In this document: positions 53 through 7,190 of the stretch, one piece after another
Position numbering within the stretch: the first letter of the stretch is position 1
Layout of the letters: every line of letters starts with the position of its first letter
DNA from: a virus
Lineage: Duplodnaviria > Heunggongvirae > Uroviricota > Caudoviricetes
Length of the DNA stretch: 7,582 nt
Reading direction: 5' to 3' (one strand)
Virus record (IMG/VR): IMGVR_UViG_2695420687_000006
Made by a program: the position numbers and the translations under genes
The notes under the pieces: generated by a model
The model's input: only the letters and a program-made list of their open reading frames with translations
What the model was told of the DNA's origin: nothing
Database searches by the model: none

Positions 53-499
53 CTACCGCCAGTTCCGGGTAGCCGCTAATACTTCCGGATCGTAATCACG
101 ACCATCGCGGGGAGCTGGAATATGGCCCACTGCCTCCGCCACCATCTGCTCAAGCATCGGACGCACATCATCGGGGGTGATACTTTTGCCGTCCGCCGGT
201 ACCGGAATATTCGCAACCGCATCATTCACCGCCTGCTGCAGTACATCCGGATCATAATCACGACCATCACGCGGTACCGAAATGGCCCCCACAGCGTCAT
301 CCACCATCGCCTGCAGAACCGGACGCACCTCATCCACCGTCACATGCTTCTGTAATACCGCCGACAGGGAAGTCAGTTTCTCTTCAAACGCTTGTGCCTG
401 CGAGGCCATCTTCCCCTCAAATGTGCGCTGTAAATCCGCCAGCACCGTGGAGAATTCTTCACCCAGCGCACGGATAATGGACAGTTCACGCTCTGTCAT
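53..499 (-). CDS. hypothetical head-module protein, 148 aa, with N-terminal helical region and internally duplicated motif (DVRPxLxxMVxxAVGxIPxPRDGRDYDP)
   Basis: Complete 148-codon ORF. Its ATG (499..497) overlaps the portal stop codon (498..496) in an ATGA arrangement, suggesting translational coupling. Residues 56-84 and 110-138 are near-identical, with a shorter related unit between them. No family recognised by eye. Confidence 0.6.
   Translation of the reverse strand: MTERELSIIRALGEEFSTVLADLQRTFEGKMASQAQAFEEKLTSLSAVLQKHVTVDEVRPVLQAMVDDAVGAISVPRDGRDYDPDVLQQAVNDAVANIPVPADGKSITPDDVRPMLEQMVAEAVGHIPAPRDGRDYDPEVLAATRNWR
56..334. repeat. intragenic tandem duplication, about 162-bp period with about 81-bp sub-repeats
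   Basis: The DNA starting near 85 (ccggatcgtaatcacgaccatc...) recurs near 247 (ccggatcataatcacgaccatc...) and similarity continues for about 90 bp. This matches the 54-aa spacing of the repeated peptide motif on the minus strand. Confidence 0.6.
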
Positions 500-1860
500 T
501 TTCGCAGTATCCCCCTGAACATCGCCTTCACCGCATCACGCTCTGTTTCGCTTATGGCCTTATTACCGTCAGATGCGCCCTCCTGGCGTGTGCCTGACGA
601 CGTTTTCCCGGAAGACGCGAACGGATCCTCACGGGCATCACGACGGGACAGCGCCTCCAGACTGTAGTTCTGCTGCTGAAGATACAGTGCATCACCGCCG
701 GCAAGGGGCGGCAGGTTCTCACGTTTACGGGCCTCATTGGGCGTGAGAAGCGTATTTTTCACCGATTCACCCAGCGTTTTCATGCGACGTTCGCTGTCCA
801 TTCTCAGCAGCGTGGTGACGTCAAACTCCGTGCTCTCGTTTTCCCCTGTTTCCAGCGCCTCATCCAGTAACAGCTCAATGGACTCAATCAGCGTCTGCAG
901 ACACTGGGAATAATACTGCTGCTCCAGCGCCTCCACGTTGTCACTGGAAGGCGGCTGGCCAACGCCAATCTTGTAGGCCGGGACACGGAACACCGAACAG
1001 ACAATTTCAGCCGTCATCTTCAGTTGTTCCACCGTCTGCGCATCCACCGGTGAAAACGTCGTGGGGTTATATTTCGCCCCATTGCTCAGGATCGCCGTTT
1101 TCCCCGCATTTTCGCCGGTATACCCGCTGTCCCAGTTGCTCTTCAGTTTTTTCGCATTTTCTTCCGTTATACTGCCGGGGATCTCAATCACCCCGGACGG
1201 CCTGCCGCCATTTCTGAAAAAAGACGTTGAATTTGCCTGAATATGATGCCCCTGCGTGGCCGCCAGCCCGGCGGCATACACCGGCGGCAGCCCCACAAGC
1301 GGATGAAAAAAACAGTTAAACCGGTCGTGGATCACTTCCCGGGCAGGCACCGTCACCGCCTCCGTGATCCCGCAGTTCCGGTCCGGTGTAATGCGATAGA
1401 ACACCTCGCCGTCATCCGCCACCAGAGGTTCAACCCGGCTCCAGTCCAGAATACGCAGTTCTTTGATCTGCCCCCGGGAGTTACGGATTTTCAGCACCAC
1501 CGTATTGCCGTGACGCAGTTTGGCGTTCAGCCACAGTTCAAAAAACTGGATACGATTCTGCTGTGCATTGGGACGACGACAGAGACGGGCAATATCCCCC
1601 TGCCGTTTTTCACGGCGGATCCCCTGTGTATCGGTCTGCATCAGGCGCAGTCGCATTTTGGCGATATCCTGGGATATCAGCGAAATGCAAGAAAACACCG
1701 CATGAAAGGAGAGGACACTTTCCGGATCGGCTTTCACGCCCTGCTGCCAGGCACCGGCAAAAGGCTCAGCCACCGCCTGAAACAGGCTGGTCCAGCCCAC
1801 CTCTTTTACATCACGTCCTGATTTCTGGTTTTTTCGGGTTCGCCGCAAAAGGTTCCACAT
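496..1860 (-). CDS. phage portal protein (HK97-family-like)
   Basis: 454-aa ORF. The N-terminal segment ESVLSFHAVFSCISLISQDIAKMRLRL resembles the conserved N-terminal motif of HK97-type portals, and size and position fit a head module. ATG at 1860..1858 has GGAG 11-14 nt upstream and an in-frame TGA just upstream, so no longer form exists. Start codon could still be slightly downstream. Confidence 0.8.
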   Translation of the reverse strand: MWNLLRRTRKNQKSGRDVKEVGWTSLFQAVAEPFAGAWQQGVKADPESVLSFHAVFSCISLISQDIAKMRLRLMQTDTQGIRREKRQGDIARLCRRPNAQQNRIQFFELWLNAKLRHGNTVVLKIRNSRGQIKELRILDWSRVEPLVADDGEVFYRITPDRNCGITEAVTVPAREVIHDRFNCFFHPLVGLPPVYAAGLAATQGHHIQANSTSFFRNGGRPSGVIEIPGSITEENAKKLKSNWDSGYTGENAGKTAILSNGAKYNPTTFSPVDAQTVEQLKMTAEIVCSVFRVPAYKIGVGQPPSSDNVEALEQQYYSQCLQTLIESIELLLDEALETGENESTEFDVTTLLRMDSERRMKTLGESVKNTLLTPNEARKRENLPPLAGGDALYLQQQNYSLEALSRRDAREDPFASSGKTSSGTRQEGASDGNKAISETERDAVKAMFRGILRK

Positions 1861-2027
1861 TCGCCATGCTCCGCATCACGTTTCTTTTTCTGACCTGCCG
1901 GACGTCGCACTGTGATGTACTCCGCCTTCCCCAGGCGAACCAGCACCTCCGCACACGGCTGTGCCACATCACGGATATCCCCGGCCCGGGCATCATGCGT
2001 GCCCTGCAGATATCGGATCTTTGCCAT
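1806..2027 (-). CDS. hypothetical small protein (73 codons), doubtful
   Basis: The only ORF in the otherwise unexplained 212-bp gap between the capsid and portal genes. It begins 9 nt after a GC-rich stem-loop and its last 55 nt overlap the portal start in another frame. The Shine-Dalgarno is weak (AGG too close to the ATG) and no family is recognised. Confidence 0.25.
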   Translation of the reverse strand: MAKIRYLQGTHDARAGDIRDVAQPCAEVLVRLGKAEYITVRRPAGQKKKRDAEHGECGTFCGEPEKTRNQDVM

Positions 2028-2036
2028 AACCTGTTA

Positions 2037-2056
2037 CGGGAGGCGCACGCCTCCCG
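2037..2056 (-). other. GC-rich stem-loop (8-9 bp arms cgggaggcg / cgcctcccg) immediately downstream of the capsid gene stop
   Basis: Perfect inverted repeat read directly from the sequence. It is not followed by a U-tract on either strand, so it is not a canonical intrinsic terminator. It could be an RNA stability or processing element. Confidence 0.4.
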
Positions 2057-2071
2057 TCCTCCTCATCAGAC

Positions 2072-3433
2072 TCAGCCGCCGGACGCACTGCCGTAGTTCA
2101 CTCCTGTGATCACCGCCACCGCCGCAGTACGGCGACGACGCCAGTTGATCCAGCGCTCCGCACGGATGGCCACGCTGCCTGTCTGGAACATGGAAACCAG
2201 CTCCACCGGGGACGGCGTAGTACTGTCGCCGGTCGGTTCAGACTGCATCTCCAGTGACGCTTCACGGGACATATCCACCGCCACACCGCCGTCATCAGCC
2301 AGATAAATATCCGGCGCATTCACCAGCACCAGCTGGTCACCCACGTACTGGGAGACAATCACCGGCAGGCCCTGGAAGGTGCCGCCAAGCAGGGTCATGT
2401 CCGGGTATTCCTTCTGACCCAGCGCATTTTTACGCATGGACAGCGCCAGGGCATTCGTGCTGGACATCAGCCAGACAGCACCAGTGGGCTGCAGATTTGC
2501 CGTCACAAACTGGCCAAACGCGGCCTCGGCATCCGCATCCGGGTTACCGGTTGATGCCGTGCCCTTCACATCATGGGTGATGGACGCCGGGGAGACATCC
2601 GCCACCGCCGCTTTTTTCGGGTCCACAAAGTCTGTATCCAGACGCGCCACTACCGCTTCCGCCAGCGCATTACGGACCAGTGCATCAGCAGCCGGACTGG
2701 AAAAACGGATCAATTCTTCCGTCAGTACCGCAATGGCCGACACTTTCGCATGACTGAAGGTGATGGATTCAAAATCAAACTTCGTCAGGGGTTTTGCCTT
2801 ACCCTCACCCACCCAGCCGGCAGCACCGCCGGACACCTGGGCGTGCACACGGATATTGAACGGCACCTGACGAAGTGCAGGGATCCCGCCCTGACCAAAT
2901 CGCCCGATAATGGTCTGCGGACGCAGGTAATCAATAAAGTCCTGTGCGTATTCCTGATATTCAGACAGGCTGCCTGCCCACTGCGGATCCGTGGTGGTCC
3001 CCGCGCCCACTGCCGATTTCAGGACATGATGCAGACGACTGTCATCCGGATACTGACGACGGGCCACTTCCAGGGCTTCAGATCGGACGCCTTTAGCCGC
3101 AGCCAGCGATTTGGCAAAGCGGGCGAAGCCAATCCCCTTCTCCAGTTTCTGCTCCACACGGATCACCGGCGCTGAAGCCACCGCGGCCACATTCCCGTTA
3201 CCGGCCTGTTTCACCGGCTGCGCCGTGGCGGCCTTACCGGCTTCCAGTTCACGCAGGCGCTTCAGGTGCGCATCCACCTGACGGATTTCCGCTGCGGTGT
3301 TGTCGTAATGCTCTTCCTCCTCCACATCCAGCGTGCGCCCTTCCTCTGCGGCTTTGGTCATGACCTCCTCAAGGGAGGCTGCCAGCGCTGCACGCTTGTT
3401 TTCAAAACTTTTAATCTGTTCGCCAATATTCAT
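2072..3433 (-). CDS. candidate internally initiated major capsid protein (delta domain plus HK97-fold body, 453 aa), nested in frame in the protease-capsid ORF
   Basis: An in-frame ATG at 3433..3431 (Met193) is preceded by AAGGAA with about 9-nt spacing and lies exactly at the linker to delta-domain junction (MNIGEQIKSFENKRAAL...). Whether it is used cannot be decided from sequence. Confidence 0.35.
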   Translation of the reverse strand: MNIGEQIKSFENKRAALAASLEEVMTKAAEEGRTLDVEEEEHYDNTAAEIRQVDAHLKRLRELEAGKAATAQPVKQAGNGNVAAVASAPVIRVEQKLEKGIGFARFAKSLAAAKGVRSEALEVARRQYPDDSRLHHVLKSAVGAGTTTDPQWAGSLSEYQEYAQDFIDYLRPQTIIGRFGQGGIPALRQVPFNIRVHAQVSGGAAGWVGEGKAKPLTKFDFESITFSHAKVSAIAVLTEELIRFSSPAADALVRNALAEAVVARLDTDFVDPKKAAVADVSPASITHDVKGTASTGNPDADAEAAFGQFVTANLQPTGAVWLMSSTNALALSMRKNALGQKEYPDMTLLGGTFQGLPVIVSQYVGDQLVLVNAPDIYLADDGGVAVDMSREASLEMQSEPTGDSTTPSPVELVSMFQTGSVAIRAERWINWRRRRTAAVAVITGVNYGSASGG

Positions 3434-4009
3434 TATGGTCTTTTCCTTATGAAAAACGGTTGTTGACTGTGCCGCAGCGCCGGCAGAAGATGCGATTTTC
3501 ACCACCGGTTTCCGGTTGCCGGACGCGGCAGAAAACGGGCGGTCGAAAGATTTAATGGTCCGGATGGTGCATTCCGCATTCGCGGGCACGGTGACGGCAG
3601 ACACCTCCATCAGTTCCCAGCGCAGAAAATGCAGTCCGCCTCCGTCCAGAAAGGTGTATTCATGGGGACGGAAGCCCACGGACAGCCCCCTGACCAGCCC
3701 GGTCTTAATGGCCGCCCAGACCTCATCCAGCCGGGCTGCCATCTGGGAGGGCATCCCCGGCTCCGGCTTCACCAGCATTGCCGTGATTTCCAGCCCTTCC
3801 CTGACCCGACGCACCGTACACTGGCCTACAGGGCGGGAATGGTCATGCTGCCAGAGAAACGGGATCGTACTGCCAAACTCCGCCCCCTCCGGCTCCAGGA
3901 TGTCACCATCCCGATCCGGAGAAGGCGTTGACGCAATCCCGGTGATCACCCGTTCATCCTCACTGAAGGATTTCACCGTCAGCAGGGAACAGGCCCGTTT
4001 AAGAGTCAC
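2072..4009 (-). CDS. prohead serine protease (S78/U35-like N-terminal domain) fused in frame to an HK97-fold major capsid protein with scaffold-like delta region
   Basis: 645-aa ORF. The N-terminal 155 aa carry prohead-protease-like motifs (ITGIASTPSPDRDGDILEPEGAEF, IPFLWQHDHSRPVG, GLSVGFRP, EVSAVTVPANAECTI). An Ala/Ser-rich linker follows, then a charged helical region (EQIKSFENKRAALAASLEEV...LKRLRELEAGKA) typical of a capsid delta domain, then an HK97-type capsid body. GTG start at 4009..4007 with AGGAGG 5 nt upstream. Confidence 0.85.
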   Translation of the reverse strand: MTLKRACSLLTVKSFSEDERVITGIASTPSPDRDGDILEPEGAEFGSTIPFLWQHDHSRPVGQCTVRRVREGLEITAMLVKPEPGMPSQMAARLDEVWAAIKTGLVRGLSVGFRPHEYTFLDGGGLHFLRWELMEVSAVTVPANAECTIRTIKSFDRPFSAASGNRKPVVKIASSAGAAAQSTTVFHKEKTIMNIGEQIKSFENKRAALAASLEEVMTKAAEEGRTLDVEEEEHYDNTAAEIRQVDAHLKRLRELEAGKAATAQPVKQAGNGNVAAVASAPVIRVEQKLEKGIGFARFAKSLAAAKGVRSEALEVARRQYPDDSRLHHVLKSAVGAGTTTDPQWAGSLSEYQEYAQDFIDYLRPQTIIGRFGQGGIPALRQVPFNIRVHAQVSGGAAGWVGEGKAKPLTKFDFESITFSHAKVSAIAVLTEELIRFSSPAADALVRNALAEAVVARLDTDFVDPKKAAVADVSPASITHDVKGTASTGNPDADAEAAFGQFVTANLQPTGAVWLMSSTNALALSMRKNALGQKEYPDMTLLGGTFQGLPVIVSQYVGDQLVLVNAPDIYLADDGGVAVDMSREASLEMQSEPTGDSTTPSPVELVSMFQTGSVAIRAERWINWRRRRTAAVAVITGVNYGSASGG

Positions 4010-4020
4010 ATCAGCCTCCT

Positions 4021-4047
4021 GAAAATAAAAAAACCGCCGCAGCGGTT
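4021..4047 (-). terminator. candidate rho-independent terminator (minus strand) between terL and the capsid gene
   Basis: The minus-strand transcript reads AACCGC-UGCG-GCGGUU followed by UUUUUUAUUUU. This is a 6-bp stem with 4-nt loop and U-tract, sitting directly upstream of the capsid Shine-Dalgarno. The stem is short, so strength is uncertain. Confidence 0.45.
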
Positions 4048-4072
4048 CATGATGGTTACAGGGTGAGCAGGG

Positions 4073-5734
4073 TTATATGAAAAAAACCTCATACGCTTTC
4101 TTTTTCGGTTCCGGATTCAGGGACATCAGGGACACCGCATTGAAGAGCGCCATCAGCGGGTCAATTTTTCCCCGTCCGCTGGCCTGTTTGGTGATAAGAA
4201 TGGCGTTACCTTTAGGCTCCACCCGGGCATTGCCAACGCACCAGGCCATCAGTGGCTGACCACCATGCACCAGCACTCCCTCAGCCAGTTTGCGCTCGGT
4301 GGTTTTGATGGCCCCGCCCAGCTTCCAGCCCTGGCTTATCCCCACCACACTCTCATCGGGGATCCCGGCTTCCGCCAGTGAATCCAGAATCTGCCCCACA
4401 CCTGACGGGTCAATACCGATATGATCCAGTAACTCAGCCTCATGAATACGACGCACATACTCCGCCACTTCCGCCGTGTCATCCCCGACCCGACGGACAA
4501 TCGTCATGTCTCCACAGGCCACAAAATCCTGAAACCGGGATGCCTCACTCTTCCGTCTGACCACCGCGGTTTCATGCACCCAGGCATGGCCCCAGCCCAG
4601 CCATTCGCGGGTTTCCCTGTCACGGCCAGTCACGTACATTCCCAGCAGATCATCCAGGCCCCCGCCGTCAATCCCCACCGTCACCACATCAGCGCGCTGC
4701 AGGATATCGTCCAGGCTGACGCGCCTGCCCTGCTGCTCCCAGAAATCCGCGCCCGCCCAGCGGTCAGAACGCAGGGCAAGACCGATTTCCACATTGGCGT
4801 GTTTTGACATGAAGCCACGAAATGCTTCCTCACCAGCCTCCCGGGCTTTACGGTACTCCCGGTACAGAAAAGCCTCATCCACCGAATAACCGAGATTCGG
4901 ATTGACCATGGCGAGGTTTTCCATCAGCAGGTGAGCCCCGCTTTCCACCATTTCAGGAGGGTGTTCAAATATCACCGGCAGAAAGTGCGGATCATGAATT
5001 TTGCCGTCGCGCACATCCCGGGCGTACTGCAGTTTCTGTCTGAACACCCCGGCGGGCGGTTCATTCGACTGGGTGGTCGTATACACCACAAACCCTTCCG
5101 GGCGGGAGGCAAGGCCGCCTATGGCTTCACGTAACATGTCCTCCGCCTTGCACTGCTTGCCAAACAGCCACAACTCATCAATCAGCGTACCCACGGACTT
5201 GATACCAGACACCGTATTCGGATCGGCTGCCACCACCTTCAGGGTGGTGTCTGTCACCCTGTGGGTGATGGTCCGGATATGGGTCTGTACCTGGCAGAGG
5301 TCATCCAGATCATCGTCACGTCGTACCATATCCCGGGCAGGGTTGAAGGCGTTGGCCGCCACCTCCACAGTCGGGGCCAGAATCGTGTAACCCGCCGCCT
5401 GCCGCCAGTTCAGTAACAGCGCCGTCATCATGATCCCCGCGGCCAGCGTGGACTTCGAGTTTTTCTTGGGGATAAGGATAAAAACTTCCTTGATATGGCG
5501 TACACCGGTCTGCGCATCGTAGGAGCCAAACAGGGCCGCCACCAGGTCAAACACCCACGGTGCACAGGACTCCCCGAACGTCGGGCTACCAGGTGCATCC
5601 ACAATCCGCAGTTGTTTAAAAATCGCCAGGGCATGTGCGGCCTCGTCCGGATAAATCGGATCCGGAATAATCGACAGCCCCTTTTTCAGGCGCTCTGCCC
5701 AGTCCGGGCAGGCTGTGCTCCATACAGGTATCAT
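4073..5734 (-). CDS. terL: terminase large subunit (Terminase_1 / HK97-like family)
   Basis: 553-aa ORF. It has a Walker-A-like segment FILIPKKNSKSTLAAG, an ATPase coupling segment GTLIDELWLFG, and a C-terminal nuclease-like region (VTVGIDGGGLDD ... GRGKIDPLMALFNAV). ATG at 5734 overlaps the terS stop (ATGA), with GAGG 8 nt upstream. Confidence 0.9.
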   Translation of the reverse strand: MIPVWSTACPDWAERLKKGLSIIPDPIYPDEAAHALAIFKQLRIVDAPGSPTFGESCAPWVFDLVAALFGSYDAQTGVRHIKEVFILIPKKNSKSTLAAGIMMTALLLNWRQAAGYTILAPTVEVAANAFNPARDMVRRDDDLDDLCQVQTHIRTITHRVTDTTLKVVAADPNTVSGIKSVGTLIDELWLFGKQCKAEDMLREAIGGLASRPEGFVVYTTTQSNEPPAGVFRQKLQYARDVRDGKIHDPHFLPVIFEHPPEMVESGAHLLMENLAMVNPNLGYSVDEAFLYREYRKAREAGEEAFRGFMSKHANVEIGLALRSDRWAGADFWEQQGRRVSLDDILQRADVVTVGIDGGGLDDLLGMYVTGRDRETREWLGWGHAWVHETAVVRRKSEASRFQDFVACGDMTIVRRVGDDTAEVAEYVRRIHEAELLDHIGIDPSGVGQILDSLAEAGIPDESVVGISQGWKLGGAIKTTERKLAEGVLVHGGQPLMAWCVGNARVEPKGNAILITKQASGRGKIDPLMALFNAVSLMSLNPEPKKKAYEVFFI

Positions 5735-6294
5735 CCGCTTTCCTCATTATCGTTATTCACCACCAGTCGGGGTGGCGGTGGCACCGCAAAACGGTTAGCC
5801 GCTTTTTTCGCGGCATCACCTTTTGCCGATTTTTTCCCGGTATCCCCTTTTTTATGGTGCGTGAACTGCGCCAGACGCCAGGCCGCATCCAGTGCCAGTT
5901 TCGGATCAATGCAGAGGTTTTCCACCAGGATCCGCCCCATGGCTTTCACCGGATCGGGAAGACCATCCTCCATATATTCAATACCAGGAGACATCACCGC
6001 GGACGGTGGCATCTCCGGATTGTTTTCGTCCGGCTGTGGTATTGCAGCCGCCTCACGGCGACGGGGTTTATCCTCCTGCTCTGATTTTTTCTGCCGGTAA
6101 ACAGGAACCTCATCCACCTCCACCGTCTCGCATTGTTTACGGGCTATAAACGCAAGCACCTCCGGATCTTTTGCCAGCTGCGAGCCTTTAACCCTGGCGG
6201 TCTTCGCCGAATAACCAGCGGCAATGGCTGACGCTGTTTTGTTTTTCCCGGACATGAGCGCCAGCGCAAATTTTCGTTTTTGCGTTGTCAGCAC
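5731..6294 (-). CDS. terS: terminase small subunit (N-terminal HTH resembling the Terminase_2 / SPP1 G1P-type motif)
   Basis: 187-aa ORF. The N-terminus LTTQKRKFALALMSGKNKTASAIAAGYSAKTARVKGSQLAKDPEV matches the LTxKQxxF...NxTxAAxxAGYSxKxAxxxGxxLxxxPxV pattern of small terminase DNA-binding domains. GTG start at 6294..6292 with GGGAGGAGG immediately upstream. It sits directly upstream of terL and overlaps it. Confidence 0.75.
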   Translation of the reverse strand: MLTTQKRKFALALMSGKNKTASAIAAGYSAKTARVKGSQLAKDPEVLAFIARKQCETVEVDEVPVYRQKKSEQEDKPRRREAAAIPQPDENNPEMPPSAVMSPGIEYMEDGLPDPVKAMGRILVENLCIDPKLALDAAWRLAQFTHHKKGDTGKKSAKGDAAKKAANRFAVPPPPRLVVNNDNEESG

Positions 6295-6582: not shown

Positions 6583-6948
6583 TTACAGTCCGATGATGTC
6601 GTCCGCTCTGCCACTACCTCCGGACACCTCCGGCAGCGTCGGGTCCGGCATACCACCCGCCGCTTCACGAGCAGACTTTTGTCGATGGCATTCGGTACAG
6701 AGCGTCCAGAGATTCGTCTCCTCATTACCACCACCGAACTGAAGTGCAATGCGGTGATCGAGTTCACTGTCACAGAGGTCAACCACACGACCACAGAGAC
6801 AGCACTGCCCGGCATCCCTGAGCCAGATATGACGCTTGAGGGAAACACGTGCACTGCCACTGACACGACGCTGTTCACCCTTCAGAATATTCACCCGTCG
6901 GGTATTCAGTGTTTTGATTCTGCTCTGGAGTGTACGAAGCTCAGCCAT
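6583..6948 (-). CDS. HNH endonuclease (phage packaging-associated)
   Basis: 121-aa ORF with a canonical HNH motif: CCLCG ... LDH ... NEETNLWTLCTECH (C-x2-C, D-H, N, C-x2-C-H). It lies immediately upstream of terS and terL, as in HK97-like cos phages. Confidence 0.9.
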   Translation of the reverse strand: MAELRTLQSRIKTLNTRRVNILKGEQRRVSGSARVSLKRHIWLRDAGQCCLCGRVVDLCDSELDHRIALQFGGGNEETNLWTLCTECHRQKSAREAAGGMPDPTLPEVSGGSGRADDIIGL

Positions 6949-6989
6949 GTAAAATCCCCGTCATATGGCAATCAGTAAAGGAAATAAAT

Positions 6990-7190
6990 ATGTCATCGAA
7001 AAACCGGACCCGCAGAACCACAACCCGCAATATCCGTTTCCCCAATCACATGATTGAACAGATCAATATCGCCCTTGAACATAAAGGTTCCGGTAACTTT
7101 TCAGCGTGGGTTATTGAAGCCTGCAGGAGAAGGCTGGCAACAGATGCAACGCATCTGCGTCCGGCCAGCATGACAAATAACGAGAAATGA
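6990..7190 (+). CDS. small ribbon-helix-helix-like DNA-binding protein (66 aa), resembling YlcI/YnfO-type small prophage proteins
   Basis: ATG at 6990 with AAGGA about 8 nt upstream. The pattern RNIRFPNHMIEQINIALEHKGSGNFSAWVIEACRRRL fits a beta-strand plus two helices. The longer track ORF from 6930 would overlap the HNH start and lacks a ribosome-binding site, so the 6990 start is preferred. The family resemblance is from memory and unverified. Confidence 0.55.
   Translation: MSSKNRTRRTTTRNIRFPNHMIEQINIALEHKGSGNFSAWVIEACRRRLATDATHLRPASMTNNEK

What the first reader, a model, noticed from the sequence alone, without database searches (positions are those of the whole stretch)
2072..4009. Prohead protease and major capsid protein encoded as one 645-aa reading frame, with a plausible nested internal start for the capsid protein
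In HK97 itself the protease and capsid protein are separate genes. Here the protease domain, an Ala/Ser-rich linker, a delta-like helical region and the HK97-fold body form one uninterrupted frame with no separate scaffold gene in the window. An in-frame ATG with a good AAGGAA ribosome-binding site sits exactly at the domain boundary (Met193, 3433..3431), so the locus could make both a fusion protein and a stand-alone capsid protein. Nested in-frame expression is known for lambda C/Nu3, and the ratio of the two products would set protease copy number per capsid.
Basis: partly seen in the sequence, partly recalled or inferred. Interest (0 to 1): 0.6.

Follow-up and report, generated by a model that had tools for sequence, protein, structure and literature searches.

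The report
Capsid gene nested in protease-capsid fusion
This common Shiga-toxin-phage head gene encodes the capsid-maturation protease and the capsid protein as one reading frame, and comparative evidence indicates it also makes the capsid protein alone from a conserved internal start, which would set how many proteases each capsid receives.

Summary
Window 2072-4009 (minus strand) is one 645-aa frame made of an HK97-gp4-type protease, a disordered linker, a delta-like helical hairpin and an HK97-fold capsid body. The fusion itself is not new. The gene is about 98% identical to the "major head protein/prohead protease" of long-tailed Stx phages, occurs in about 1,100 of 5,426 complete E. coli genomes, and matches a catalogued PHROG family.

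The nested start at Met193 is strongly supported by three sequence-based lines of evidence:
- A Shine-Dalgarno motif plus an in-frame ATG or GTG is kept at this boundary in essentially every fused homologue, down to about 39% identity. The encoded residues and even the codon register vary, and split relatives start their capsid gene at the same site.
- The site lies in the most AT-rich, least structured stretch of the ORF.
- Rare-codon use drops from 7.9% to 1.1% exactly at residue 192|193, matching the separately translated HK97 gp4/gp5 pair.

The likely mechanism resembles lambda C/Nu3, except that the nested product is the capsid protein itself. No experiment confirms this, and I found no paper describing it. 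I rate it a new variant of a known kind, of moderate interest.

The parts
2072..4009 (-). Full-length ORF of 645 aa (69.2 kDa): protease, linker, delta-like domain and HK97-fold capsid body. The stop codon is at 2072-2074.
   Evidence: PHROG 617 'major head protein' covers residues 1-639.
4021..4048 (-). Terminator-like hairpin (GAACCGC-TGCG-GCGGTTT) plus a T-run, between the terL stop and the SD of the fusion gene.
   Evidence: It is conserved, with stem changes, in enteric relatives and in Hydrocarboniphaga. HK97 has an annotated putative terminator at the equivalent spot before gp4.
4007..4020 (-). Initiation region of the full-length product: AGGAGG (4020-4015), a 5-nt spacer, then GTG (4009-4007).
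   Evidence: SD pairing -10.3 kcal/mol. Relatives mostly use ATG with GGAGG.
3551..3952 (-). Prohead protease domain (residues 20-153). Predicted catalytic His55 is at 3847-3845 and Ser110 at 3682-3680.
3434..3550 (-). Ala/Ser-rich linker (residues 154-192), predicted disordered, with conserved AASG and AGAxA motifs. It takes the place of the roughly 60-residue C-terminal tail of HK97 gp4.
   Evidence: pLDDT below 50 for 155-188. Alignments.
3431..3448 (-). Internal initiation region: AAGGAA (3448-3443), a spacer, then ATG (3433-3431) = Met193. It lies in the most AT-rich, least structured part of the ORF.
   Evidence: conservation. GC is 0.31 against 0.60 for the ORF, and MFE is -6.0 against a median of -18.7.
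2072..3433 (-). Nested in-frame ORF: stand-alone capsid protein precursor of 453 aa (48.3 kDa) with its delta-like domain.
   Evidence: Stand-alone homologues begin here. Rare codons are 5 of 453 here against 15 of 192 upstream.
3224..3433 (-). Delta-like scaffolding domain (residues 193-262), a two-helix hairpin at 195-222 and 229-262.
   Evidence: AlphaFold2 pLDDT above 90. It aligns to residues 4-73 of the cf-PICI EcCI2 major head protein.
2075..3133 (-). HK97-fold capsid body (residues 293-645).

Best explanation
One late mRNA segment gives two in-frame products.

Ribosomes starting at GTG 4009 (strong AGGAGG) make a 69-kDa polyprotein: an HK97-gp4-type serine protease, a disordered linker, a delta scaffolding domain and the HK97-fold capsid protein. 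Ribosomes that bind independently at the conserved, unstructured AAGGAA-ATG site (Met193) make the 48-kDa capsid precursor alone, probably in large excess.

Both products share the whole capsid-protein part, so a minority of fusion subunits co-assemble into the procapsid shell with their protease domains facing inward. The covalent tether replaces the C-terminal targeting tail that the free HK97 protease uses. Once assembled, the protease removes the linker and the delta domains, and the shell matures. The ratio of the two initiation events sets the number of proteases per capsid.

Shown from sequence: the single frame, the two domains and their folds, the invariant catalytic His/Ser, RNA-level conservation of the internal SD and start codon, and the codon-usage step.

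Inferred: that both products are made, their ratio, co-assembly, and the cleavage events.
For: (1) Conservation at the RNA level.
- The Met193 column is the unique maximum for 'start codon preceded by an SD core' in 26 genomic homologues: 23 of 26 overall and 7 of 8 non-enteric.
- All 47 viral homologues at 41-59% identity have ATG (43) or GTG (4) there, and 40 have AGGA/GGAG/GAGG 3-11 nt upstream, against a 4.5% background.
- The residues encoded by the SD vary (EG, EA, KG, KE, KD, RR, RS, ES, EN, ED), and in L081 and L099 the motif sits in another codon register.
- Among 144 fused representatives that are mutually below 50% identical, 129 have Met at -4/-5 from the anchor, against 3.8% expected. 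13 of the other 15 have Val, and every Val in the DNA sets is GTG.

(2) Homology to proven starts. Split relatives with the same synteny start the MCP gene at this position: Burkholderia phage vB_FUBS1 (AAGGA, 10 nt, ATG, then MTIAEKI), Snodgrassella, and L087 with 'AAG TAA ATG' in frame. The stand-alone cf-PICI EcCI2 head protein aligns from residue 4 to profile position 195.

(3) Initiation-region signature. The 61 nt around the site are the most AT-rich and least structured of the ORF, at median percentiles of 0.7% for GC and 1.4% for MFE over 26 sequences.

(4) Expression signature. Rare codons are 15 of 192 before Met193 and 5 of 453 after it (Fisher 2.9e-5), and the best split point is 192|193. 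The protease part (7.9%) resembles terL, portal, terS and HNH (5.5-6.6%), while the MCP part is at 1.1%. The same direction is seen in 16-17 of 18 enteric homologues. HK97, with separate genes, shows 6.2% for gp4 and 0.5% for gp5.

(5) The protease must be made as a fusion. There is no stop codon, H55 and S110 are invariant, the upstream SD is strong, and no other protease gene is in the module.
Against: There is no direct evidence of two products: no Ribo-seq, proteomics or gel data were found.

In this sequence the internal SD is only moderate, with a long spacer of about 10 nt, and it is not an outlier by SD energy (rank 13 of 52). Elongating ribosomes from the upstream start pass over the site and could interfere with initiation.

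The AT-richness partly follows from the Lys/Asn/Ile/Glu-rich conserved peptide MNIAEQIKSFE. The codon-usage step could in principle be inherited from a split ancestor. The sequences compared are related, so the binomial and Wilcoxon values overstate independence. A capsid made only of fusion subunits is not obviously excluded on steric grounds.
Confidence: 0.8

Rival explanations
1. Fusion only. Every capsid subunit is synthesised as the 69-kDa polyprotein from GTG 4009, so each subunit brings its own protease. The internal SD and ATG are an unused relic of an ancestral separate capsid gene.
For: The frame is uninterrupted, and the upstream start has the stronger SD. The single-sequence SD score of the internal site is unremarkable. 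Annotators treat the gene as one product.
Against: An unused relic would not keep both the SD and the start codon in essentially all of about 200 homologues down to 39% identity, inside a linker whose residues and length vary freely. It also would not keep them in different codon registers. Nor does it explain the unstructured window or the codon-usage step at 192|193 that matches separately translated HK97 genes.
Confidence: 0.1
2. The conserved purine-rich motif is an internal SD-like pause site, or an unstructured spacer, that lets the protease domain fold before the delta domain emerges. It would not be an initiation site.
For: The motif sits exactly between two independently folding domains, in a disordered linker.
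Against: This does not explain the near-universal ATG or GTG 5-10 nt downstream, the use of the same site as the true start in split relatives, or the codon-usage step. From general knowledge, SD-induced pausing is itself contested.
Confidence: 0.05
3. The internal start is the only important one. The upstream protease part would be a decaying or dispensable remnant, and maturation would be done by another protease.
For: Many E. coli copies lie in defective prophages, and truncated or deleted variants exist.
Against: H55, S110 and many protease residues are invariant or nearly so across 87 divergent fusions. The upstream SD and start are conserved. No other protease gene is in the head module. 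Infectious Stx phages carry the intact gene.
Confidence: 0.03

Closest known systems
Phage lambda C/Nu3, and the analogous HSV-1 UL26/UL26.5 and Haloferax virus HFTV1 gp17/gp17.5 nested protease-scaffold genes
   Same: A long ORF has the protease at its N-terminus. An in-frame internal start gives a shorter, more abundant product that shares the C-terminal part. That shared part carries the protease into the procapsid, and the ratio of initiations sets protease dosage. HFTV1, lambda and HSV-1 are described in bioRxiv 10.64898/2026.09.13.751334.
   Different: In those systems the nested product is a free scaffolding protein and the capsid protein is a separate gene. Here the nested product is the capsid protein itself with its delta domain, so the protease would be tethered to a shell subunit. 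The protease family also differs from lambda C, which from general knowledge is ClpP/SppA-like; here it is S78.
HK97 gp4 (protease) plus gp5 (capsid protein with delta domain)
   Same: The protease family is the same: 30% identity, with H65/S114 aligned to H55/S110. The capsid fold is the same. There is an N-terminal helical scaffolding domain and no separate scaffold gene. A terminator-like hairpin lies upstream of the protease. The rare-codon contrast between the protease and capsid parts is the same.
   Different: In HK97 these are two genes separated by a stop codon. gp4 has about 60 extra C-terminal residues, which from general knowledge (Duda et al. 2013) form the capsid-targeting region; the fusion lacks them. 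The gene order is also different: terL, portal, protease, MCP in HK97 against terL, protease-MCP, orf73, portal here.
Annotated 'major capsid and protease fusion proteins' (PHROG 617 and 4523; actinobacteriophage clusters AU, AM, BI, DJ, CC and EE; Rhodobacter RcC phages; thaumarchaeal proviruses)
   Same: A single ORF carries a prohead protease domain in front of an HK97-fold capsid protein.
   Different: Those reports are annotations only. None that I could read addresses how the gene is expressed or mentions an internal start. Apart from PHROG 617, they are different sequence families, and I did not test them for the signal.
Split relatives of the same family (Burkholderia phage vB_FUBS1, viral contig L087, Snodgrassella prophages)
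   Same: They share the synteny terS, terL, protease, MCP, small ORF, portal. The linker is homologous, and the SD and ATG lie at the same position.
   Different: A stop codon (L087: AAG TAA ATG) or a frame change ends the protease before the capsid start, so the protease is a free protein.

Membership tests
Peptidase S78 / HK97 gp4-type prohead protease | Match to the family profile above the curated cut-off | tested here: met
   PF04586 at 33.6 bits against a cut-off of 21, E 5.3e-8, residues 48-152. PHROG 80 'head maturation protease' E 1.7e-41. BLASTP to HK97 gp4 E 2e-9.
Peptidase S78 / HK97 gp4-type prohead protease | Catalytic His and Ser in place | tested here: met
   H55 aligns to gp4 H65 and S110 to gp4 S114. 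Both are invariant in 87 fusions at 36-53% identity. That H65 and S114 are the catalytic residues is from my knowledge of the HK97 literature, not from a tool.
Peptidase S78 / HK97 gp4-type prohead protease | Herpesvirus-assemblin-like fold | tested here: met
Peptidase S78 / HK97 gp4-type prohead protease | C-terminal capsid-targeting tail, as in free gp4 | tested here: not met
   The alignment to gp4 ends at gp4 residue 162 of 225. The fusion continues with a 36-residue disordered linker instead.
Peptidase S78 / HK97 gp4-type prohead protease | Proteolytic activity on the delta domain | not testable with these tools
   This needs biochemistry.
HK97-fold major capsid protein with N-terminal delta (scaffolding) domain | Profile match and HK97 fold | tested here: met
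HK97-fold major capsid protein with N-terminal delta (scaffolding) domain | Helical N-terminal domain in front of the N-arm, with no separate scaffold gene | tested here: met
   Predicted helices at 195-222 and 229-262 with pLDDT above 90. No scaffold family among the window ORFs. This is a prediction, not a structure.
HK97-fold major capsid protein with N-terminal delta (scaffolding) domain | Delta domain removed by the protease; position of the mature N-terminus | not testable with these tools
   The cleavage site was not determined. It presumably lies in the low-confidence segment at about 263-292.
Nested in-frame protease/assembly-protein gene pair (lambda C/Nu3 type) | Protease at the N-terminus of the long ORF, with a conserved internal in-frame start and RBS | tested here: met
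Nested in-frame protease/assembly-protein gene pair (lambda C/Nu3 type) | Both products are actually synthesised | not testable with these tools
   No expression data were found in ten literature searches.
Nested in-frame protease/assembly-protein gene pair (lambda C/Nu3 type) | The shorter product is made in excess | tested here: inconclusive
   The support is indirect only: a rare-codon step at 192|193 that equals the HK97 gp4/gp5 contrast.
Nested in-frame protease/assembly-protein gene pair (lambda C/Nu3 type) | The nested product is a free scaffolding protein | tested here: not met
   The nested ORF is the capsid protein with its own delta domain.
Protease-capsid fusion proteins (PHROG 617) | One ORF spanning both domains, matching the family profile end to end | tested here: met
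   phrog_617 E 2.7e-260, residues 1-639 against profile positions 7-626 of 626. 98% identity to Stx-phage 'major head protein/prohead protease'.

The most novel reading that the evidence does not exclude
The conserved nested start would define a general protease-delivery strategy that has not been described. In this large family, which holds well over a thousand sequence clusters and includes the long-tailed Shiga-toxin phages, the maturation protease would exist only as an N-terminal extension on a minority of capsid shell subunits. Two competing initiation sites on one mRNA would set its copy number. The covalent tether would replace the targeting tail of free HK97-type proteases. Fused and split states would interconvert by a single stop codon without moving the capsid start.
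Probability: 0.5. Interest if true: 0.65.

Novelty: new variant of a known kind. Interest (0 to 1): 0.55.

Why it matters
How many protease molecules enter a procapsid, and how they get there, is a standing question in tailed-phage and herpesvirus assembly. The known solutions are a targeting tail (HK97) or a nested protease/scaffold gene pair (lambda, herpesviruses).

This locus points to a third arrangement, in which the shared module is the capsid protein itself. It occurs in a very large family that includes medically relevant Stx-converting phages. The idea can be tested directly with simple mutants: a synonymous SD knock-out, Met193 changed to Ile, or an inserted stop codon that mimics the natural split relatives.

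There is also a practical point for annotation. Thousands of database entries list one product where two are probably made. The approach used here could flag other nested genes; it combines conservation of a start codon and SD across shifting codon registers with a codon-usage step.

Tried and rejected
- Ranking in-frame starts by anti-SD duplex energy within single sequences did not discriminate. G-U pairing inflates GTG-rich stretches, and the enteric SD is only moderate. I replaced it with a positional conservation test.
- Ten literature searches found the fusion as an annotation and found nested protease/scaffold genes. They found nothing on a nested capsid start or on proteomics of this Stx-phage head module. 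Duda et al. 2013, Oh et al. 2014 and Liu & Mushegian 2004 are not held, so an earlier mention cannot be excluded.
- Moraxella phage Mcat19 was examined as a possible independent fusion. Its protease and capsid protein are separate genes.
- Locus L028 was dropped because the capsid gene precedes the protease there.
- I considered placing the maturation cleavage site by analogy with HK97. The HK97 sequence around K103|S104 gives no convincing match, so no site is proposed.
- Short E. coli variants of 580-605 aa are internal deletions in decayed prophages and say nothing about expression.
Full report
**What is there**

The window is a phage head-packaging module on the minus strand. It holds HNH endonuclease (6583-6948), small terminase (5731-6294), large terminase (4073-5734), the 645-aa ORF in question (2072-4009), a 73-aa ORF (1806-2027), portal (496-1860) and a further ORF (53-499).

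The ORF starts at GTG 4009, 5 nt downstream of AGGAGG. Codon 193 is ATG at 3433-3431, preceded by AAGGAA at 3448-3443.

**Identity of the two halves**

- Pfam places Peptidase_S78 on residues 48-152 and Phage_capsid on 386-635, both above their curated cut-offs.
- Residues 21-156 align to HK97 gp4 at 30% identity (E 2e-9). His55 aligns to gp4 His65 and Ser110 to gp4 Ser114. Both are invariant in 87 fused homologues at 36-53% identity.
- An AlphaFold2 model built on that alignment (mean pLDDT 86) shows a compact domain at 20-153, a disordered stretch at 155-188, a two-helix hairpin at 195-262 and a capsid body at 293-635.
- The alignment to gp4 stops at gp4 residue 162. The roughly 60 C-terminal residues of the free HK97 protease have no counterpart and are replaced by the linker.

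**The fusion is common and already annotated**

- The window is 97-98% identical to prophages in E. coli. 1,117 of 5,426 complete genomes hold at least 80% of it.
- The protein is about 98% identical to products of Stx1a, Stx2a and Stx2c phages such as 2851, 1717, YYZ-2008 and JLK-2012, which depositors call "major head protein/prohead protease".
- PHROG 617 spans the whole protein.
- An exhaustive profile search found 12,636 relatives. 144 of the best 150 cluster representatives, which are mutually below 50% identical, are fusions of 620-700 aa.
- Fusions of this general kind are a recognised annotation category in actinobacteriophages, Rhodobacter phages and thaumarchaeal proviruses.

So the architecture is real but not new.

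**The internal start: conservation**

I collected DNA for 26 fused genomic homologues at 39-77% identity. They come from Enterobacterales, Hydrocarboniphaga, Marinobacter, Chelativorans, Mesorhizobium, Hyphomicrobiales and Caulobacteraceae. I also collected 47 fused viral-contig homologues at 41-59% identity.

- The linker varies in sequence and length, yet an in-frame start codon preceded by a Shine-Dalgarno core lies at the boundary in 23 of 26 genomic sequences. This is the only column of the alignment with such a count. The runner-up, at 14 of 26, lies inside a conserved DDGG..M peptide.
- In the viral set, 47 of 47 have a start codon (43 ATG, 4 GTG) and 40 of 47 have a strict core, often AAGGAGGG. 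The background for a random 9-codon window is 4.5%.
- The residues encoded by the motif differ widely (EG, EA, KG, KE, KD, RR, RS, ES, EN, ED, GA). In two contigs the GGAG lies in a different codon register. Selection is therefore on the nucleotides, not on a peptide motif.
- At the protein level, 129 of 144 fused representatives have Met 4-5 residues before the conserved xAEQI motif, where the linker background predicts 3.8%. 13 of the remaining 15 have Val at that spot. Wherever DNA is available, that Val is GTG.

**The internal start: homology to proven starts**

- Burkholderia phage vB_FUBS1 has the same synteny but separate protease and capsid genes. The capsid gene starts MTIAEKI, 10 nt after AAGGA.
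- Snodgrassella prophages are likewise split.
- Viral contig L087 reads AAG TAA ATG in frame, with GAGGGGA upstream. It differs from the fused state by a single stop codon, so there the site must be the capsid start.
- Stand-alone capsid homologues, and the solved cf-PICI EcCI2 head protein, begin at the Met193 equivalent.

**Two further signatures**

1. Initiation-region character. The 61 nt around the internal start are the most AT-rich and least structured of the ORF in almost every homologue. In the window, GC is 0.31 against 0.60 and MFE is -6.0 against a median of -18.7. The median percentiles over 26 sequences are 0.7% and 1.4%.
2. Codon usage.
 - Codon usage changes abruptly at the boundary. 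Rare E. coli codons are 15 of 192 before Met193 and 5 of 453 after it (Fisher 2.9e-5). The best split point over the whole ORF is 192|193, with 166|167 statistically about as good (p 3.1e-5).
 - The protease part (7.9%) looks like terminase, portal and HNH (5.5-6.6%). The capsid part (1.1%) looks like a highly expressed gene.
 - The direction holds in 16-17 of 18 enteric homologues.
 - As a positive control, HK97, where the two genes are translated separately, shows 6.2% for gp4 and 0.5% for gp5.
 - Equal ribosome flux along a single-product ORF would not predict such a step.

**Mechanism proposed**

The full-length product supplies the protease, since there is no other way to make it. The nested product supplies the bulk of the capsid subunits. 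Because both share the capsid part, fusion subunits would co-assemble and place the protease inside the shell, and the ratio of initiations would set the dose.

This is the logic of lambda C/Nu3, HSV-1 UL26/UL26.5 and HFTV1 gp17/17.5, with the capsid protein taking the place of the free scaffold. The upstream site has the stronger SD but a GTG codon and more local structure (-12.0 kcal/mol). The internal site has ATG and little structure (-6.6). The actual ratio cannot be computed from this.

**Caveats**

- Nothing here shows the two proteins directly.
- The sequences are phylogenetically related, so the P values are descriptive.
- The AT-richness is partly a consequence of the conserved N-terminal peptide.
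- The codon step could be inherited.
- Several key older papers could not be read, so prior mention of the nested start cannot be excluded.
- I put 0.8 on the nested-expression model, 0.1 on fusion-only, and the remainder on minor alternatives.

**Verdict**

- The fusion is already known. The nested capsid start is, as far as I could find, undescribed, and is best classed as a new variant of a known kind.
- Interest is moderate. It is not a conceptual surprise for phage-assembly specialists. But it is widespread, present in Stx phages, cleanly testable, and relevant to how protease copy number is set.

Noticed in passing
window 4021-4048 (minus strand); also L002-L018 upstream of the fusion gene: A terminator-like hairpin with a T-run sits between the terL stop and the SD of the protease-capsid gene. 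It is conserved in all enteric relatives and in Hydrocarboniphaga, with different loops and stem changes (AACCGC/GCGGTT, ACCCGC/GCGGGT, GCCCG/CGGGC). HK97 has an annotated putative terminator at the equivalent place before gp4. Its role is open: read-through under antitermination, or an mRNA-stability element.
   Followed up: partly
window 53-499 and 496-1860 (minus strand); L001 4874-7781: The portal ORF (454 aa) and the next ORF (148 aa) overlap by ATGA. They match positions 1-451 and 455-598 of a single 859-position portal PHROG (phrog_2271). RefSeq calls the region a 'frameshifted' portal pseudogene in strain NZRM4169. The ATGA junction is conserved in Kluyvera and Phytobacter relatives, so this may be two coupled genes, or a recoding site, rather than decay.
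   Followed up: partly
window 53-499 (minus strand): The 148-aa ORF downstream of portal contains repeated P-x-P-x-D-G-(K/R)-D/S..D..V motifs (VPRDGRDYDPDVL, VPADGKSITPDDV, APRDGRDYDPEVL) and has no Pfam match. It may be a repetitive head-associated or decoration-type protein.
   Followed up: no
window 496-5734; L031 (Burkholderia phage vB_FUBS1) 353-5451: The gene order is non-canonical: terL, protease-capsid, small ORF, portal, with portal after the capsid gene. HK97 has terL, portal, protease, capsid. The unusual order is shared with the distantly related Burkholderia phage.
   Followed up: partly
window 1806-2027 (minus strand): A conserved 73-aa ORF of unknown function (phrog_829) lies between the capsid and portal genes and overlaps the portal start by 55 nt. 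A small hypothetical gene occupies the same position in vB_FUBS1.
   Followed up: no
window 3434-3550 (linker, residues 154-192); alignments: Short motifs (AASG at 161-164, AGAxA at 176-180) are conserved across classes inside the otherwise variable, disordered linker. They could be protease self-cleavage sites or a capsid-targeting signal. The split relative L087 ends its free protease with this same linker.
   Followed up: no
L109 about 1675 (viral contig IMGVR_UViG_3300026078_000087): An in-frame TAG interrupts the protease domain right after the conserved HEHDEPIG motif. This could be a pseudogene, a sequencing error or stop-codon reassignment.
   Followed up: no
window 6930-7190 (plus strand): An intact 86-aa DUF3950 (YlcI/YnfO family) gene lies on the opposite strand, just upstream of the HNH gene. 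The same gene is annotated as frameshifted in strain NZRM4169.
   Followed up: no
L028 2911-4709 (Parasphingorhabdus MAG): A relative has the reverse arrangement: the capsid gene comes first, followed by an overlapping 283-aa protease gene with a long C-terminal extension.
   Followed up: no
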